DNA from: Chloroflexota bacterium
GTDB lineage: Bacteria; Chloroflexota; Ktedonobacteria; Ktedonobacterales; Ktedonobacteraceae
Reading direction: 5' to 3'
Length of the DNA: 24,747 bases
Assembly: GCA_046726675.1 (NCBI GenBank)
Contig: JBKPBA010000498.1
Coordinates: 1 to 24,747, forward strand
How positions within the stretch are numbered: the stretch's first letter is position 1; each line of letters opens with the position of its first letter. This document shows, in pieces, positions 1,912 through 7,435 of the stretch. The position numbers and the translations under genes are program-made. The notes beneath the pieces are model-generated. The model saw only the letters and a program-made list of their open reading frames with translations, was not told where the DNA came from and did not search any database.

Positions 1912-2098
1912 AGCAAGGTTTCCTTAATACCATATGAGACAGACCGCGTACCTTTATGCAGATGTCATACCATTCCATATAAAGGCTCATCCATTTGGAG
2001 TGTAGCACTTTGATTATGAAATAGCAAGCATTGACAATACTGGGGGTGCGCGTACGATTTGTGCAGAGACAGGCAGCCGAGCGAAGCGATGGCCAGTC

Positions 2099-2122
2099 GT
2101 AGGGGCCCGATTGATCGCGCCC
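2099..2122 (+). repeat. GTAG-type REP-like palindrome, inverted partner of the copies at 2171 and 3634
   Basis: CGTAGGGGCCCGATTGATCGCGCCC is the near reverse complement of GGGCGCGATAAATCTGGCCCCTACG at 3634-3658. Confidence 0.75.
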
Positions 2123-2190
2123 ACGGGGTGGCGTGGGGCAAACGTCCGCATGAGCCTCCCCCCACCCCATGGGCGCGATCAATCTGGCCC

Positions 2191-3633
2191 CATAAGCATT
2201 AACTTAAGGACTGAAGAGTTCCCAATCGGAACCCTCCAGCAACATCTGCATGGTGCCGGGATCAGCCTTGCGCCGATTGACGCGACAGCCCGAGCGCATA
2301 CTGCGGCGCAGGGAGCGTTCCAGGCAGTCCCAACGATACTCGCCATGCAGCGCCGCTAGCACCCGCATGGCAAGGCGGCGCACCACCTGCGCCGCCTTGC
2401 CCAGGCTGCGCCACGGGTCGTGCCAACAGCCCAGCAGGATGAGCCAGTGGTGCAGCAGCATGGCAGCCAGCTTGCCATACACTTCGCACAAGATACGCCA
2501 GGGCTGCTTGCTGCGCCACTCATCGATCTGGCCATAGTGTTTCCAAAGCTTGTACAGCAGTTCCAGTTGCCAGCGGATGCGCATGAGTTGCAGGACTTCG
2601 ATCACGCTCAGGCGCCCACGCGACACATTGGTGATGACGATCGTCCACTCGGCCAGGTACCATTGCTCTGGCGAGACCGCTTGCCCTTTATCCCGGGCTT
2701 CTTCTTCCAGCCGTTCCCGTCGCTGCCTGGCTACCTCACTGGGTACTCGCACGATGATCAGACGAGCAGGAATGCGCGCCTGTGCTCCTCCCAACACCCC
2801 GTATTGCACCACCTGACCGACCTGCTGGGGCAAGAGCCCACGCAGCTGCAGTCGATAGCTGCCCTTGCGATTGAGCAAGACGGTCTGGCTCTTGAGTCGC
2901 ATCAGCCACCACACCCCCGCCTGTGCTTGCCGTTGGAGCCAGGCTAAATCAAAGTAGCCCAGATCAGCTAGAAACAGCGTCCCTGCCAGCAGCGCCAGTG
3001 CTTTGAACGGACTGCGATGGTCGGGGAGCCGCCCATCAGACAAGCATGGCCCTTGCAACTGCCCACACAGCAAGTCCCACCGCACCTGTAATGTGACGGC
3101 AGCCGGCGAAGTCCCCGTGCGCCCGCCGCAGCCGCGCCACCCCTCTTGCAAGCCTGGGGGCAAGCCCACCACACTACTATCTTCCACCACCACCGCTTCA
3201 AAGCGGCGCAGCAGCGGAATATCGACCGGATCTGCTTGCATGAGCTGGGCGGCCATCCGCTGCAGCATCGCCTGCATGAAGCGGGTGCAGGCAGCCGTGA
3301 AACGCTTGCTTAAGCCGGGGGCCGAGAGATCCACCTCGCACTCCTGAGCCACTTGCGGCAAGGCGTCCAGCGACGCATCGGCCTGCTCCAGCCAGCCAAA
3401 CACCAGCAACAAGAAAAACTGCGCTCCATCAAAGTTGCGTTCCCTTTGGATAAAGCCCGTCTCACGGGCCACCTCGGTGGCTTGTGCCAGTACCTGCTCT
3501 AAGCTCTCTTTGATCTGTGTTATCCTTCGCATTGAAGGTCTCCTTCCCATCATGACTAGTGTTTCAGAACTTGCTTTCATGATGTCTTATGGAGATCCTT
3601 TGTGTCATCCCTTTCCTTAAGTTAATGGCTATG
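2191..3633 (-). mobile_element. IS4-family insertion sequence (CAT ends), 1443 bp
   Basis: Terminal inverted repeats CATAAGCATTAACTTAAGGA (2191-2210) and TCCTTAAGTTAATGGCTATG (3614-3633; 18/20 match) enclose one transposase; visibly more GC-rich than the flanks. Confidence 0.9.
2204..3532 (-). CDS. IS4-family DDE transposase
   Basis: VVEDSS, FLADLGY and RIRWQLELLYKLWK (YREK-like signature); ATG 3532 preceded by AGGAG; stop TAA lies within the terminal repeat. Confidence 0.9.
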   Translation of the reverse strand: MRRITQIKESLEQVLAQATEVARETGFIQRERNFDGAQFFLLLVFGWLEQADASLDALPQVAQECEVDLSAPGLSKRFTAACTRFMQAMLQRMAAQLMQADPVDIPLLRRFEAVVVEDSSVVGLPPGLQEGWRGCGGRTGTSPAAVTLQVRWDLLCGQLQGPCLSDGRLPDHRSPFKALALLAGTLFLADLGYFDLAWLQRQAQAGVWWLMRLKSQTVLLNRKGSYRLQLRGLLPQQVGQVVQYGVLGGAQARIPARLIIVRVPSEVARQRRERLEEEARDKGQAVSPEQWYLAEWTIVITNVSRGRLSVIEVLQLMRIRWQLELLYKLWKHYGQIDEWRSKQPWRILCEVYGKLAAMLLHHWLILLGCWHDPWRSLGKAAQVVRRLAMRVLAALHGEYRWDCLERSLRRSMRSGCRVNRRKADPGTMQMLLEGSDWELFSP

Positions 3634-3787
3634 GGGCGCGATAAATCTGGCCCCTACGGCACTTTGTGCAAAAATCGTACGCACACCCCAATACTGGCTA
3701 TTTCTCAAGCATACGCTCTTATTTGGAGTTTACATCTCATCCAAATCCCAGGAGAGTGTCATTTGACCTATATTAGTGATCAGGTCT

Positions 3788-4072
3788 TTATTGTGCAGCG
3801 GTCCTGGAGTGCAGCCAAGCGTTGCACTTCGTGATTAACCGGGGCAGGAGCGCCACGACAAGAACGGCTAACCAGATGGCGGTAGCCGTTGCAAAGAGTG
3901 TGCCGAACAACCACGTGCCCAGCCACCCTCCGAGCAAGGCAGCCAGCGCACCGAGGCCGAGCATGCCCAGACGTCCACCACGAACCCATGCCGCCGGCCG
4001 CAGCTTCGCCGCATTAGCCAGCGCACCGATGAGAAGGCCAACAAACAACCAGAAGAGTGAAAGGATCAGCAT
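3788..4072 (-). CDS. Small Gly-rich membrane protein (GlsB/YeaQ/YmgE-like)
   Basis: Three TM segments with GLLIGALA and GALAALLGGWLG patterns; GAGGAG upstream. Family assignment by motif resemblance only. Confidence 0.6.
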   Translation of the reverse strand: MLILSLFWLFVGLLIGALANAAKLRPAAWVRGGRLGMLGLGALAALLGGWLGTWLFGTLFATATAIWLAVLVVALLPRLITKCNAWLHSRTAAQ

Positions 4073-4105
4073 CGTCGCTCCTCGCTTTCTGCTCCGTTAC
4101 GATGC

Positions 4106-5335
4106 TCAGGAGCCAACCAGCAGTAGACTGTTAATAGTTTGGAACAGCCTGGTACCATCACTCAGTAGTTGGGCCATGTCAAGGTTCGACCGTACCTGTA
4201 CGTGCGAGAAGATACCATAAGCGGCAAAGTCATATGGATGATGGAGGCGAGCAAGCGCCACTGCAAATTCCTGAGCCTGGGTGAACGGTATGGATTGATC
4301 GTTGCGGTCATGCAGCAAGTGGATTGGAGCACGTACCTGATCGATGACCGACATCGGTGAGAGTTGGATGAGCAGCGCTTTCATCTGGGGCGAGAGCGCA
4401 CTGAGATTGCGGTCGACACTGCCGGGCTCATCGCCTTCCAGCAGGTGATAGAACGCCGCGGTTCCTGGCGAAAGTTGCGCCTGTTGCTGCGCGGTCAGCG
4501 GGGGAGCGATTTTATCAGGGAACGCTTTCTGCATGAGCTTGTTTTCTGCAGGCGAGAGCAGGCTGCTCACGGTGCGGGCCAACGCGAATTGGTCGGTCGC
4601 AATCGGCTGCCAGGGCTGCGTCTGGCCATCGACGTCCTGGGCGCGCTTGCCTATGACGCGGAGCAGGCTGGTCACATCAAAATAACCACCTAGCATGCCG
4701 ATGAACGCCACCTGGTCGCGGATGCGCGGGTCGGCTGCAGCCACGCTGGCCAGTTCATCGCCGACGCTGAAAGTGATGATGCCGATGTGATGCGGGTCCA
4801 CGCCCGGCCAGTGCTCCAGTAGCTCGAATGCCTGCACTACGGCCTCACCGTCGCGCGCCGAGATCTGGAAGTTGAAGAGAGTGGGCGTCCCGACATTGAC
4901 GACGACGATGCCCTCTCGCGCAAAAGATTGCGCGAAGTTGATGAACTGTGGTACTTCGCGATTATCGCCAGCTCCCACAATGGTGATGATAGCCTCGCGC
5001 CCGCCGGGGATCAGGGGAGGTGACGTGGCCGGCTCGTAGATGTCCAGAAAGACCGGGCCAATGGCTGAGGATAGCGTAATGCGCCTGAAGCGCACGGCGT
5101 CGCCAGCAAGCACCAACGGCGCGGGCGCAGAGGCGCTAATCACCGCCGGGAGCAGCAAGGTACTGCGTGACCAGGCCCGTCCCCAAGGGAAAAGCGAGAA
5201 AAAACATCCTGCGCACAGCAAGAAGGCGAGGGCCGCCTGCGCTGCTCTCTGGCCCAGTCTCAAGGTTCGCCGGGGTTTGGCTCCAGGCGACCCAGGGTCG
5301 ATTTCCTGCCTTGTAGATAGCTGCTTATAGTCCAT
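4106..5335 (-). CDS. Membrane-anchored alpha/beta hydrolase-fold protein
   Basis: N-terminal TM helix, DIYEP, HIGIITFSVG (elbow-like), LLHDRNDQSIP (Asp), FSHV (His); start 5335 has GAGG upstream, alternative start 5374. Confidence 0.7.
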   Translation of the reverse strand: MDYKQLSTRQEIDPGSPGAKPRRTLRLGQRAAQAALAFLLCAGCFFSLFPWGRAWSRSTLLLPAVISASAPAPLVLAGDAVRFRRITLSSAIGPVFLDIYEPATSPPLIPGGREAIITIVGAGDNREVPQFINFAQSFAREGIVVVNVGTPTLFNFQISARDGEAVVQAFELLEHWPGVDPHHIGIITFSVGDELASVAAADPRIRDQVAFIGMLGGYFDVTSLLRVIGKRAQDVDGQTQPWQPIATDQFALARTVSSLLSPAENKLMQKAFPDKIAPPLTAQQQAQLSPGTAAFYHLLEGDEPGSVDRNLSALSPQMKALLIQLSPMSVIDQVRAPIHLLHDRNDQSIPFTQAQEFAVALARLHHPYDFAAYGIFSHVQVRSNLDMAQLLSDGTRLFQTINSLLLVGS

Positions 5336-5534
5336 AGCAGTATCGCCTCGCGCTTCCCGCACTGGTTGACGCATCTCTTTCAGGCTCCATTGCTGCTCGA
5401 CCAGAGCGTGAACCAGCTAACGTTTGCGCGCTCTTCCCTTTCATAAGATAAGAACGCTGCATAGCTCCTCCAGGTCACTGATTGAGGACATGCTCATTAA
5501 GTGGTGCATTCGGCAAATTCGTGGATGAGAACCA

Positions 5535-5578
5535 GGGCCGATCAATCGGCGCTGTGCACGATCAATCGGCACCTACGG
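5535..5578 (-). repeat. Tandem pair of GTAG-type REP-like palindromes
   Basis: CGATCAATCGGC occurs twice with a 20-bp period (5539-5550, 5559-5570), ending in CTACG; same family as the 2099/2171/3634 copies. Confidence 0.7.
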
Positions 5579-5623
5579 TTTCCCCAGGAATGAGCGAATG
5601 CACCACTAAGTATACATACAACC

Positions 5624-7435
5624 TTAACTGTTCTTAGCAGGCTCTGTTTCGACAAGATCAGCCCGTATGCGCTGCACACCCTGACCAATGGTTTCAGCTT
5701 TGATGATGCGGAAGCGTCCCATACCGCCAGTATGCCGCACATGCGGGCCACCGCACACCTCCATCGAGTGATCCCCAATCTTATAAACTTTGACCAGATC
5801 ACCGTAGCGCTCACCAAAGAAAGCCAGCGCCCCCTGATCGAGCGCCTGTTGCAGAGGCATCACCTCCACTGTTGTCTGAAGGTCACGCAAAATCTGCTGG
5901 TTCACGATCTCCTCAACGCGCCGTATTTCCTCACTGGTCAGCTTCTTTGGATGCGAGAAATCAAAGCGCAGCCGCTCCTGTGTAATGTTGCTTCCTACCT
6001 GGTGCACATGTGTCCCTAGCACATCACGCAGCGCCTGGTGGAGCAGGTGTGTCGCAGTATGCAGTCGCGTAGTACGTTCGCTGTAATCAGCCAGTCCGCC
6101 CGCAAACTTTTTCTGATTAGCCTGGCGTGAGCGTTCTTGATGCTGCTTGAAAAGGAAATTGAAGCCAACTAGATCAATACTCAGGCCGCGTTCCTGGGCC
6201 AGTTCAGCCGTTAAGGTCGGGGGGAATCCAAAGGTATCAAAAAGCCGGAAGACTGTCTCGCCTGGCAGAATCGTCTCACCTCGCTGGCGTAGCCTTTCCT
6301 CCTGCTTCTGGAATTCACGCAGCCCTCGCGACAGTGTGCGCCCAAAGCGCTCCTCCTCACGAGTCAATTCGTTCATGACGGTTGCCTGTTGCTCTTCCAA
6401 TTCTGGATAGATCGGCCTATAACGAGCGATGACTGTTTGCGCCACTTCAGCAGTGAAAGTGCGTGGCATGTTCAGTTCTTGCCCACATCGCACTGCACGA
6501 CGTATCAATCGGCGGCAGATGTAGCCTTGCTCGACATTACTGGGTATCACACCATCAGCAATAATGAACGTTGCTGCACGTAGATGGTCGGCGATGATAC
6601 ATATCAGCCGCTGCTCCGGTTCAGATGAGACAACCTTCTTTCTCTCCTGCCGCTCGCGTAGTTCACCGATGCGCTCCACAATAGGTATGAATAGATCAGT
6701 AGCATAGACATCGCTGGTTCCCAGGTGTACACAGAGCGTTCGTTCCAGGCCAATACCCACATCAATGTTACGCTGCTTGAGCGGCTCGTATGTACCCTCT
6801 GCTGTTTTGTTGTACTGCATGAAGACGTTATTGCCGATCTCAATATATTTACCGCAGCCGCAACCCGGCTGGCAATCAGAACCATGCATTGGGCGGCCTG
6901 TGTCGTAGAAGAGTTCAGAGTCTGGACCACAAGGACCTGTCTTGCTATCAGGTGGCCACCAGTTGTCCTTTTTAGACAGGTAGTAGATACGCTCCTGAGG
7001 AATACCCAACTCTAGCCACACCTGCGCTGCTTCGTCGTCACGGGGAGCATCACTATCACCTGCAAAGACGGTGACAGAGATGCGCTCCTGCTCCAATCCC
7101 AGGGCACATGTAAACCATTCTAATGTCCAACGCAATGAATCCTGTTTCCAGTAGTCACCAAGTGACCAGAAGCCTAACATCTCAAAGAAGGTGTTATGGC
7201 TGATATCACCGACTTCTTCAATGTCATCGGTGCGTAAACACTTTTGCACATTCACCAGGCGTCGCCCATTAGGATGACTCTCACCCAGCAGATAAGGCAC
7301 GAGCGGTTGCATGCCGGCGCTCATAAACAGTACGCTTGGGTCGTTTTCCGGCACGAGCGGTGCTGATGGAATAATTATGTGCCCACGCTCCGCAAAGAAG
7401 CTCAAGAACAACTGTCTCAGTTCATCCCCTGTCAT
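5624..7435 (-). CDS. alaS: Alanine--tRNA ligase, short form lacking the C-Ala domain
   Basis: ELRQLFLSFF, DPSVLFMSAGMQP, QKCLRTDDIEEVG, HNTFFEMLG, GPCGPDSE, DHLRA, PSN..GY..RRLIRRA, FDTFGFP, editing motifs HTATHLLH and EVCGGPHV; ends shortly after RIRA; T-box leader upstream. Confidence 0.95.
   Translation of the reverse strand: MTGDELRQLFLSFFAERGHIIIPSAPLVPENDPSVLFMSAGMQPLVPYLLGESHPNGRRLVNVQKCLRTDDIEEVGDISHNTFFEMLGFWSLGDYWKQDSLRWTLEWFTCALGLEQERISVTVFAGDSDAPRDDEAAQVWLELGIPQERIYYLSKKDNWWPPDSKTGPCGPDSELFYDTGRPMHGSDCQPGCGCGKYIEIGNNVFMQYNKTAEGTYEPLKQRNIDVGIGLERTLCVHLGTSDVYATDLFIPIVERIGELRERQERKKVVSSEPEQRLICIIADHLRAATFIIADGVIPSNVEQGYICRRLIRRAVRCGQELNMPRTFTAEVAQTVIARYRPIYPELEEQQATVMNELTREEERFGRTLSRGLREFQKQEERLRQRGETILPGETVFRLFDTFGFPPTLTAELAQERGLSIDLVGFNFLFKQHQERSRQANQKKFAGGLADYSERTTRLHTATHLLHQALRDVLGTHVHQVGSNITQERLRFDFSHPKKLTSEEIRRVEEIVNQQILRDLQTTVEVMPLQQALDQGALAFFGERYGDLVKVYKIGDHSMEVCGGPHVRHTGGMGRFRIIKAETIGQGVQRIRADLVETEPAKNS

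What the first reader, a model, noticed from the sequence alone, without database searches (positions are those of the whole stretch)
2171..3653. IS4 element flanked by a 20-bp duplication that spans exactly one REP hairpin
Immediately outside the terminal repeats are GGGCGCGATCAATCTGGCCC (2171-2190) and GGGCGCGATAAATCTGGCCC (3634-3653), 19/20 identical, starting and ending at the base of the palindrome. IS4-family duplications are typically about 8-13 bp. A duplication equal to the hairpin length suggests structure-directed insertion, with cuts at the base of an extruded REP cruciform. Alternative: insertion between pre-existing tandem REP units, as these occur with a 20-bp period at 5539-5570.
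Basis: partly seen in the sequence, partly recalled or inferred. Interest (0 to 1): 0.7.

Follow-up and report, generated by a model that had tools for sequence, protein, structure and literature searches.

The report
IS231-like element with 20-bp duplication
A jumping gene of the IS4 family sits in a repeated DNA hairpin and really did duplicate 20 bp of its target. That is twice the usual length for the family, and dozens of related copies in other bacteria do the same, so it is a fixed property of this transposase lineage and not a by-product of the hairpin's size.

Summary
A 1443-bp IS (2191-3633; ends CAT...ATG; intact 458-aa transposase on the minus strand) is flanked by 20-mers at 2171-2190 and 3634-3653, 19/20 identical.

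The 20-mer is not a hairpin by itself (-2.2 kcal/mol, z -0.14). It is the 3' arm of a ~90-nt hairpin (2098-2195, z -7.5) inside a 183-bp MITE that has its own 9-bp duplication.

Uninterrupted copies of this MITE carry one arm unit, so the 20 bp is a true target duplication, not pre-existing tandem units.

Among 66 non-redundant flank pairs from public contigs of Chloroflexota and other phyla, 45 have exact direct repeats of 19-22 bp and 8 more have two or fewer mismatches. On contigs of 100 kb or more the figure is 44 of 50.

Length stays 20-21 bp whether or not the target is palindromic. Where REP-like palindromes extend further (GTAG...CTAC), the cuts lie inside the stem.

The target consensus is G|GGGC...GCCC|C. 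The ends match IS231, which duplicates 11 bp at GGG-N5-CCC.

My reading: an IS231-like clade with the same half-sites but a stagger one helical turn longer. REP-directed insertion is supported; a cruciform-base cut is not.

This scan had noted the MITE and 9-11-bp REP-seeking IS4 elements before, but not a 20-bp duplication.

The parts
2034..2042 (.). Left copy of the 9-bp target duplication (CAATACTGG) of the host MITE
   Evidence: Same 9-mer at 3689-3697. Other MITE copies have their own 9-bp duplications. A soil-metagenome contig joins 2036 to 3691, and the same-genus ortholog locus lacks the whole element.
2043..2064 (+). Left terminal inverted repeat of the 183-bp MITE
   Evidence: Inverted repeat I4, 2043-2065 against 3667-3689, 91% complementary. 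MITE copies on C509, C460 and C385.
2098..2122 (+). 5' arm of the MITE's central REP-like hairpin: CGTAG foot plus the inverted copy of the 20-mer unit (2103-2122)
   Evidence: 1 mismatch on the minus strand; fold.
2123..2170 (+). Inner stem and loop of the hairpin
   Evidence: I1; -38.4 kcal/mol, z -7.5 for 2098-2195.
2171..2190 (+). Left copy of the 20-bp target-site duplication. It is the 3' arm unit of the hairpin and still pairs with 2103-2122.
2191..3633 (-). IS4-family (IS231-like) insertion sequence, 1443 bp, single copy in this assembly
   Evidence: only one full copy in G000. Ends defined by the conserved inverted repeat shared with about 70 related copies.
2191..2209 (+). Terminal inverted repeat on the transposase C-terminal side (CATAAGCATTAACTTAAGG)
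   Evidence: Fits the IS231-subgroup end signature CAT-------AA--TAA (PMC2266710 Table 1).
2204..3580 (-). Transposase gene, 458 aa, intact. It has D134, D206 and E340, plus R336 and K347.
   Evidence: The AlphaFold model (pLDDT 85.8) best matches Tn5 transposase 1MUH, E 1.2e-8.
3615..3633 (-). Terminal inverted repeat on the transposase N-terminal side (reads CATAGCCATTAACTTAAGG on the minus strand)
3634..3653 (+). Right copy of the 20-bp target-site duplication (A instead of C at position 10)
3654..3658 (+). CTACG foot of the ancestral hairpin, now separated from its partner CGTAG (2098-2102) by the IS
   Evidence: Inverted repeat I3, 2098-2122 against 3634-3658, 92% complementary. The same foot follows the single arm in the uninterrupted copies.
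3667..3688 (-). Right terminal inverted repeat of the MITE
3689..3697 (.). Right copy of the MITE's 9-bp target duplication (CAATACTGG)

Best explanation
An IS231-like member of the IS4 family (DDE transposase with a Tn5-like fold) transposed into the 3' arm of the REP-like hairpin at the centre of a 183-bp MITE. Its two strand transfers were staggered by 20 bp, and gap repair duplicated the arm unit.

The 20-21 bp stagger is an intrinsic ruler of this transposase clade. The enzyme selects targets whose ends read G|GGG(C)...(G)CCC|C. These are the same GGG/CCC half-sites that IS231A uses with an 11-bp duplication, but set about one helical turn further apart. In many genomes that spacing matches the GC-rich stem ends of REP-like palindromes of the type GTAG-GGGC-N12-GCCC-CTAC, which therefore act as hot spots.

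Because the whole recognised site lies inside the duplication, insertion copies the target instead of destroying it.

Shown: the element, its ends, the duplication, the single-unit ancestral state, the clade-wide length and the target consensus.

Inferred: that a symmetric transposase dimer reads the two half-sites on ordinary duplex DNA two turns apart. The one mismatch is taken as a later substitution or a conversion towards the commoner REP variant.
For: This locus:
- Coordinates, inverted repeats and the 19/20 repeat.
- Both flanks belong to one MITE copy, with matching TIRs and a matching 9-bp duplication. This excludes a chimeric assembly.
- The MITE with the IS and one 20-mer removed (183 bp) aligns end to end with uninterrupted copies on C509 (90%), C460 (90%) and C385 (82%). 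Each has a single arm unit followed by CTACG.
- G000 has no other same-strand tandem units.

Same genome:
- A diverged copy on C496 has an exact 20-bp duplication in the hairpin loop. A 35%-identical copy on C564 has an exact 20-bp duplication of a perfect palindrome.

Clade:
- 37 of 50 flank pairs on contigs of 100 kb or more have exact 19-22 bp repeats, and 7 more have two or fewer mismatches. On shorter contigs 8 of 16 are exact.
- These include cultured Ktedonobacter racemifer, Ktedonospora formicarum, and the Chlorohelix and Herpetosiphon plasmids.
- Identical transposases give 19, 20, 21 and 22 bp.
- Length is independent of target palindromicity, and symmetry often extends beyond the duplication.
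- Consensus: G at position -1 in 39 of 51; GGG at positions 1-3 in 45, 44 and 37; CC at the last two positions in 46 and 45; C at +1 in 42.
- G042 has 145 single REPs and 0 tandem doublets, although its IS copies are all flanked by duplicates.
- A tandem IS-REP-IS arrangement shows re-insertion into a regenerated target.

Family placement:
- NCBIfam IS4.
- The closest named relative is IS231E, with nearly the same terminal repeat.
- IS231A duplicates 11 bp at GGGNNNNNCCC (PMC2577343 Table 1).
- IS4-family duplications are 7-13 bp (PMC2266710 Table 1).
Against: - The two copies differ at one base.
- No allele of this exact locus with the MITE but without the IS was found. The read-laying gave only paralogous joints and a MITE-empty joint.
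- The two closest relatives recovered (94% and 66% identical transposases, L128 and L129) carry different REP-like 20-mers on their two sides. They lie on metagenome contigs of about 2.6 and 3.0 kb. I attribute this to chimeric assembly or IS-IS recombination, but did not show it.
- Across the set, 6 pairs have no repeat, 4 have inverted flanks where direct ones are expected, and one has an 11-bp duplication.
- Only the best 80 of 348 confirmed loci were examined, and many rows come from a few genomes, so they are not independent.
- The duplex two-turn mechanism is inference. No transposition assay or complex structure exists.
- ISfinder could not be consulted, so the length may already be recorded there.
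Confidence: 0.78

Rival explanations
1. Structure-directed insertion. The transposase recognises an extruded hairpin or cruciform and cuts at its base, so the duplication equals the hairpin length.
For: Most targets are palindromic: a mean of 6.3 of 10 complementary pairs against 2.5 expected by chance. In several genomes the duplication is a self-complementary 20-21-mer, for example -9.3 and -10.6 kcal/mol. Odd-length palindromes tend to give 21 bp and even-length ones 20 bp.
Against: In the window the 20-mer is not a hairpin, and the real hairpin is about 90 nt. Of 51 exact duplications, 23 have 5 or fewer of 10 internal pairs yet are still 19-22 bp. Symmetry extends 4-12 bp beyond the duplication in 18 of 51, so the cuts are inside the stem and not at its base. 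The C496 copy duplicated 20 bp of loop. The same REP sequence gives both 20 and 21 bp with an identical enzyme.
Confidence: 0.1
2. No long duplication took place. The IS inserted, with a short or no duplication, between two REP units that were already tandem.
For: A REP subtype with two units about 20 bp apart exists at 5539-5570 and beside other IS ends. The two flanking units differ by one base. L128 and L129 have different REP-like units on their two sides.
Against: Uninterrupted paralogous MITE copies have one unit, and the reconstructed 183-bp element is colinear with them. G000 has no same-strand tandem units of this type. G042 has 145 single and 0 tandem REPs. Exact 20-21 bp repeats also occur at unique, non-REP sequences.
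Confidence: 0.04
3. The 20-mers belong to the element. The true ends would be 2171 and 3653, forming long imperfect inverted repeats because the unit is partly self-complementary.
For: the repeat finder reports a 40-nt, 80% complementary inverted repeat at 2171-2210 against 3614-3653.
Against: About 70 related copies share the CAT...ATG ends but have unrelated flanking 20-mers. The 20-mer is part of the MITE hairpin in IS-free copies.
Confidence: 0.01
4. The flanks come from two different insertions joined by IS-IS recombination or by assembly. Their similarity would then only reflect the REP family.
For: Such hybrid flanks do seem to occur elsewhere (L128, L129, L038, L061, L076).
Against: Left and right flanks continue into the two halves of one MITE, with matching TIRs and the same 9-bp duplication. 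The IS is single-copy in this assembly.
Confidence: 0.03

Closest known systems
IS231A and the IS231 subgroup of the IS4 family (Bacillus cereus group)
   Same: Single-ORF DDE transposase. Nearly the same terminal repeat: IS231E CATGCCCATCAACTTAAGG against CATAAGCATTAACTTAAGG here, fitting the subgroup signature CAT-------AA--TAA. The target duplication starts with GGG and ends with CCC. IS231E is the closest named relative, and Bacillus supplies 660 of the 700 plasmid records with a match.
   Different: IS231 duplicates 10-12 bp (11 bp, GGG-N5-CCC); this clade duplicates 20-21 bp. Transposase identity is only about 25%, on a long branch. The Y of the YREK motif is M here and varies across the clade. 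Hosts are Chloroflexota and other non-Bacillota.
ISRm22 (IS4 family) and other REP-targeting IS: IS1397/ISKpn1, ISPsy8, ISPa11, ISPpu9/10 (Tobes and Pareja 2006, PMC1525189)
   Same: They insert preferentially into REP palindromes. REP targeting by an IS4-family member is already documented. Hybrid or imperfect direct repeats there were also attributed to recombination between copies.
   Different: Those elements break the REP at one point and duplicate 0-6 bp. Here the duplication covers the whole 20-21 bp core, so both flanks keep a complete unit.
IS1202 family subgroups (Siguier et al., bioRxiv 10.1101/2022.12.17.520857)
   Same: This is a precedent for long, fixed-length duplications by a bacterial IS. 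It is also a precedent for subgroups of one family that differ in steps of about 10-12 bp (5-6, 15-17, 27-28 bp), tentatively linked to transposase indels.
   Different: A different IS family. It does not target REPs; the 5-bp subgroup targets Xer sites.
IS1634 and IS1549 (IS1634 family, related to IS4)
   Same: Relatives of IS4 that produce unusually long direct repeats.
   Different: Their repeats vary from 8 to 514 bp between copies. Here the length is fixed at 20-21 bp. They lack the YREK motif.
Tn5/IS50 transposase (PDB 1MUH)
   Same: Best structural match of the predicted model over its full length: E 1.2e-8, probability 1.00.
   Different: 11% identity and TM 0.45. Tn5 makes a 9-bp stagger.

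Membership tests
IS4 family | DDE_Tnp_1-type transposase scoring above the curated family cut-off | tested here: met
   Pfam PF01609 at E 9e-14. NCBIfam NF033592 at 186.7 bits against a cut-off of 115.
IS4 family | Intact DDE triad | tested here: met
   D134 (nearly invariant), D206 and E340 (invariant) align with the IS231E motifs.
IS4 family | Y(2)R(3)E(6)K motif | tested here: not met
   R336, E340 and K347 are present, but the Y position is M in the window protein and L, A or K in relatives. Y occurs only in the Chlorohelix copy.
IS4 family | Target duplication of about one helical turn (7-13 bp; PMC2266710 Table 1) | tested here: not met
   20 bp here. Across the 66 tallied public-contig flank pairs, 45 are exact at 19-22 bp.
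IS4 family | Tn5-like transposase fold | tested here: met
   AlphaFold model with pLDDT 85.8. The top PDB matches are all Tn5 transposase, E about 1e-8.
IS231 subgroup | End signature CAT-------AA--TAA | tested here: met
IS231 subgroup | 10-12 bp duplication at GGG-N5-CCC | tested here: not met
   The GGG...CCC ends are kept, but the spacing is N14-15.
IS231 subgroup | Transposase clusters with the IS231 transposases | tested here: inconclusive
   IS231E is the closest named relative, but at about 25% identity and separated by a long branch. Only one IS231 sequence was in the tree.
REP (repetitive extragenic palindromes) as the target | Short GC-rich imperfect palindrome with a conserved GTAG foot, many intergenic copies | tested here: met
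   About 100 units of the form GGGS-N12-13-SCCC followed by CTAC in the 3.8-Mb partial genome. 145 perfect GTAG...CTAC units in G042.
REP (repetitive extragenic palindromes) as the target | Associated RAYT (Y1 transposase flanked by REPs) | tested here: inconclusive
   Eight PF01797 matches in G000, none with such units within 600 bp. The genome is 66% complete.

The most novel reading that the evidence does not exclude
This clade may show that DDE transposases of one lineage can change duplication length in quanta of one helical turn (11 bp in IS231, 20-21 bp here) while keeping the same GGG/CCC half-sites. That would parallel the 5-6, 15-17 and 27-28 bp series of IS1202, and it implies a re-spaced synaptic dimer that attacks the same face of the DNA one turn further apart. 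One consequence is that the entire target lies inside the duplication. Each insertion then copies a REP hairpin and regenerates its own hot spot, which could seed IS-REP-IS arrays and possibly REP doublets.
Probability: 0.4. Interest if true: 0.65.

Novelty: new variant of a known kind. Interest (0 to 1): 0.55.

Why it matters
Duplication length is treated as a family-level constant and is used to classify IS elements and to infer transpososome geometry. The 2008 revision of the IS4 family used 'about one helical turn' as a hallmark.

A well-populated IS231-like clade that reproducibly makes 20-21 bp duplications breaks that rule. It offers a natural pair of enzymes (11 bp against 20-21 bp, same half-sites) for asking what sets the stagger.

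There are practical consequences too.
- Annotation pipelines that look for 8-13 bp repeats will miss or misplace the ends of these elements.
- Because the element copies REP hairpins without disrupting them, it may shape REP clusters in Chloroflexota genomes.

For this window alone, the finding is an ordinary nested insertion (an IS in a MITE in an intergenic region).

Tried and rejected
- Read-laying on four soil-metagenome runs. No contig showed this locus with the MITE but without the IS. The joints from 2122-2168 to 3634 come from other copies of the hairpin family. Only the MITE-empty joint (2036 to 3691) is informative. Shares of words were small (0.15 or less), so I draw nothing about habitat.
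- Control of the end-finding script on Bacillus IS231 copies. The left end was found in only one of four loci, and that copy had no direct repeat. The 11-bp figure for IS231 therefore rests on the literature.
- Sequence search of the PDB: no meaningful hit. The fold search was needed.
- RAYT search: no Y1 transposase next to these REP-like units.
- Literature searches for named IS of Ktedonobacter or Herpetosiphon and for '20-bp direct repeats' in IS4 or IS231: nothing relevant.
- Source names of 120 homologs are generic ('IS4 family transposase'), with no ISfinder names.
- Excision footprints (tandem REP doublets without an IS) were sought in two IS-rich genomes and not found.
- Extended-IR, pre-existing tandem unit and hybrid-flank explanations were considered and rejected, as set out under Rival explanations.
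Full report
**What is at the coordinates**

The window is contig C498 of a fragmented genome: 565 contigs, 3.78 Mb, 51% GC, 66% complete.

Positions 2191-3633 are a 1443-bp insertion sequence.
- Its terminal inverted repeats are CATAAGCATTAACTTAAGG (2191-2209) and, read on the minus strand, CATAGCCATTAACTTAAGG (3615-3633).
- It has one intact 458-aa ORF on the minus strand, 2204-3580.
- The protein matches Pfam DDE_Tnp_1 and NCBIfam NF033592 'IS4 family transposase' at 186.7 bits, cut-off 115.
- Its AlphaFold model (pLDDT 85.8) finds Tn5 transposase as best structural match, E 1.2e-8.
- D134, D206, E340, R336 and K347 are in place. The tyrosine of the family's YREK motif is a methionine.

They are 19/20 identical, and no such match occurred in 100 shuffles.

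**What the 20-mer is**

It is not a hairpin of its own. Alone it folds at -2.2 kcal/mol with z -0.14.
- An inverted copy lies at 2103-2122. The two are the arms of a long hairpin, 2098-2195, at -38.4 kcal/mol and z -7.5.
- The foot of that hairpin, CGTAG (2098-2102), pairs with CTACG. CTACG now lies on the far side of the IS, at 3654-3658 (repeat I3).
- The hairpin is in turn the core of a MITE. Its terminal repeats are at 2043-2064 and 3667-3688, and it has a 9-bp duplication, CAATACTGG, at 2034-2042 and 3689-3697.

The MITE is a discrete insertion.
- A same-genus genome, G002, has the syntenic locus without it.
- A soil-metagenome contig joins 2036 directly to 3691.

The structure is therefore nested: an IS inside a REP-like hairpin, inside a MITE, inside an intergenic region. 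The region lies between an alpha/beta-hydrolase gene (880-1911) and a hydrolase-like gene (4106-5374).

**Is the 20 bp a real target duplication?**

Yes, on three lines of evidence.
1. Both flanks continue into the two halves of one MITE copy, which rules out a chimeric assembly.
2. Removing the IS and one 20-mer leaves a 183-bp element. It aligns end to end, without a gap at the junction, with uninterrupted copies on C509 (90%), C460 (90%) and C385 (82%). Each of these has a single arm unit followed by CTACG.
3. No same-strand tandem units of this kind occur elsewhere in the genome.

The single C/A difference sits at position 10. The inner copy keeps C, which matches the opposite arm. The outer copy has A, the commoner variant of the unit in this genome (13 against 3 copies). 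I take it as a later substitution or a conversion.

The assembly holds only one copy of this IS, but it holds diverged relatives.
- C496 carries a frameshifted copy (46-58% identity) with an exact 20-bp duplication. That duplication lies in the loop of another copy of the same hairpin element, not in an arm.
- C564 carries a 35%-identical copy with an exact 20-bp duplication of a perfect palindrome.

I then collected relatives from 41 related genomes, from the species-representative genome collection (best 80 of 348 confirmed loci) and from two plasmids of cultured Chloroflexota. All share a conserved end, with AA[GC]NTAAG at positions 11-18. This allowed the boundaries to be set independently of the flanks.

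After removing duplicate sites, the tally for the 66 public-contig flank pairs was:

|---|---|---|---|---|---|---|
| 100 kb or more | 50 | 37 | 7 | 3 | 2 | 1 ambiguous |
| Shorter | 16 | 8 | 1 | 1 | 4 | 1 of 11 bp, 1 ambiguous |

Over all non-redundant pairs, including the ten from related genomes searched that the table leaves out (the window's own among them), there were 32 exact 20-bp and 17 exact 21-bp repeats.

The set includes Ktedonobacter racemifer, Ktedonospora formicarum, Chlorohelix allophototropha, Herpetosiphon aurantiacus, two closed Dehalococcoidia chromosomes, Ardenticatenaceae, Poribacteria, Latescibacterota and Synergistia. On a transposase tree every sub-branch shows 20-21 bp, and identical proteins give 19, 20, 21 and 22 bp.

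One row (L011, 21 bp) comes from the unpublished genome G022. No conclusion depends on it.

**Ruler or structure?**

Four observations bear on this (unless stated).
- The 51 exact duplications average 6.3 of 10 self-complementary pairs against 2.5 by chance, so palindromes are clearly preferred.
- Length does not depend on palindromicity. Targets with 5 or fewer pairs give 12 of 20 bp, 9 of 21 bp, one of 22 bp and one of 19 bp. Targets with 8 or more pairs give 14 of 20 bp and 4 of 21 bp.
- Where the palindrome is longer than the duplication, the cuts fall inside the stem. This is typical of REPs of the form GTAG-GGGC...GCCC-CTAC. Symmetry continues 4-12 bp beyond the duplication in 18 of 51 sites.
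- The consensus is G|GGGC...GCCC|C: G at -1 in 39 of 51; G at positions 1-3 in 45, 44 and 37; C at the last two positions in 46 and 45; C at +1 in 42.

In the window itself a cut 'at the base of the hairpin' would have given a duplication of about 90 bp.

These results fit a symmetric enzyme that reads two half-sites a fixed distance apart. They do not fit a cut at the base of an extruded cruciform. The pre-existing tandem rival also fails at clade level. Genome G042 has 145 single GTAG...CTAC REPs of the targeted type and no tandem doublets, yet its IS copies are all flanked by two units.

**Comparison with what is known**

- The end sequence fits the IS231-subgroup signature of the IS4 family. 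It is nearly identical to the IS231E end found on a B. cereus plasmid. IS231E is the closest named relative at about 25% identity, and 660 of the 700 plasmid records with a match are Bacillus.
- IS231A duplicates 11 bp at GGGNNNNNCCC (PMC2577343 Table 1).
- The 2008 revision of the family lists 7-13 bp for all seven subgroups and treats 'about one helical turn' as a hallmark. Long duplications there appear only as the variable 8-514 bp repeats of IS1634 and IS1549.
- REP targeting by IS of five families, including ISRm22 of the IS4 family, is known, with duplications of 0-6 bp (PMC1525189).
- This scan has also noted REP-seeking IS4 elements in Chloroflexota with 9-11 bp duplications.
- Long fixed duplications have a precedent in the IS1202 family, whose subgroups give 5-6, 15-17 and 27-28 bp.

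The present clade thus keeps the IS231 ends and half-sites but has a stagger about one turn longer. I found no description of this in the searchable literature. ISfinder could not be consulted.

**Consequences and loose ends**

Because the recognised site lies within the duplication, insertion doubles it. One Dehalococcoidia locus shows REP-IS-REP-IS-REP, as expected from re-insertion into a regenerated site. In the window the MITE hairpin stays intact on the left of the IS.

Against the reading, three points stand.
- The two closest relatives recovered (94% and 66% identity) have unlike REP-like 20-mers on their two sides. Both lie on metagenome contigs of about 2.6 and 3.0 kb, where chimeric assembly is likely, but I did not prove it.
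- Several copies have flanks that are inverted copies of each other where direct copies are expected.
- One copy has an 11-bp duplication.

These remain unexplained and are listed under things noticed in passing.

**Verdict**

- The duplication is genuine.
- The REP preference is real.
- The cruciform-length mechanism is not supported.
- The best explanation is a clade-wide 20-21 bp stagger of an IS231-like transposase.
- It is a new variant of a known kind, of moderate interest.

Noticed in passing
window 2034-3697: The IS sits in a 183-bp MITE (TIR GGGTGCGCGTACGATTTGTGCA, 9-bp duplication CAATACTGG) whose core is a REP-like hairpin. At least four other copies exist in the genome, each with its own 9-bp duplication. 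The element is absent from the syntenic locus of same-genus genome G002 and from a soil-metagenome contig. The parent IS was not sought.
   Followed up: partly
G000 contig C496:1155-2722 (L016/L022): A related IS (1568 bp, transposase 46-58% identical, apparently frameshifted near residue 300) lies in the loop of another copy of the same MITE hairpin. It has an exact 20-bp duplication, GGGGCGGCTCGTGCGGACGT.
   Followed up: partly
L009, L038, L081, L061, L076, L037, L077: In several related copies the two flanking 20-mers are reverse complements of each other, not direct repeats. In near-palindromic REPs only the central 2-4 nt are flipped (for example CTTG against CAAG). L009 is at a unique terminator hairpin, where recombination between copies is a poor explanation. 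Possible causes are IS-IS recombination between REPs of opposite orientation, or hairpin-templated gap repair. Unresolved.
   Followed up: partly
L079 (Chloroflexi MAG contig): One member of the clade, on a long branch, has an exact 11-bp duplication (GGGGTGTCTCG). This is the IS231-type length, not 20-21 bp.
   Followed up: no
L060:1427-4256 (Dehalococcoidia chromosome OZ247430.1): Two identical IS copies lie in tandem, separated by a 22-bp REP unit and flanked by the same REP on both sides. This is as expected if the second copy inserted into the target regenerated by the first.
   Followed up: yes
window 5539-5570; C303:559-605; L032 left flank: A REP-like subtype with two CGAT(A/C)AATCGGC cores about 20 bp apart, ending in CTAC. 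It recurs next to IS ends of this clade. Whether such doublets descend from 20-bp duplications left after IS loss is untested. No doublets of the targeted REP were found in two IS-rich genomes.
   Followed up: partly
window 3775-5651 compared with L112 (G002): The hydrolase-like gene 4106-5374 and its flanks have no counterpart in the syntenic locus of G002. There the hydrolase gene (880-1911 ortholog) is about 150 bp from the alanyl-tRNA synthetase gene (5624-7435 ortholog).
   Followed up: no
imperfect duplications in L031, L035, L046, L073, L108 against L064: When the two copies of a duplication differ, the copy downstream of the transposase gene is the more perfect palindrome in 5 of 7 cases. 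In L031 two differences both act in that direction. The numbers are too small to interpret.
   Followed up: no
L128 and L129: The two closest relatives of the window IS (94% and 66% identical transposases) are flanked by two different REP-like 20-mers, one of them the window's own unit. They lie on metagenome contigs of about 2.6 and 3.0 kb. Chimeric assembly or recombination is suspected.
   Followed up: partly
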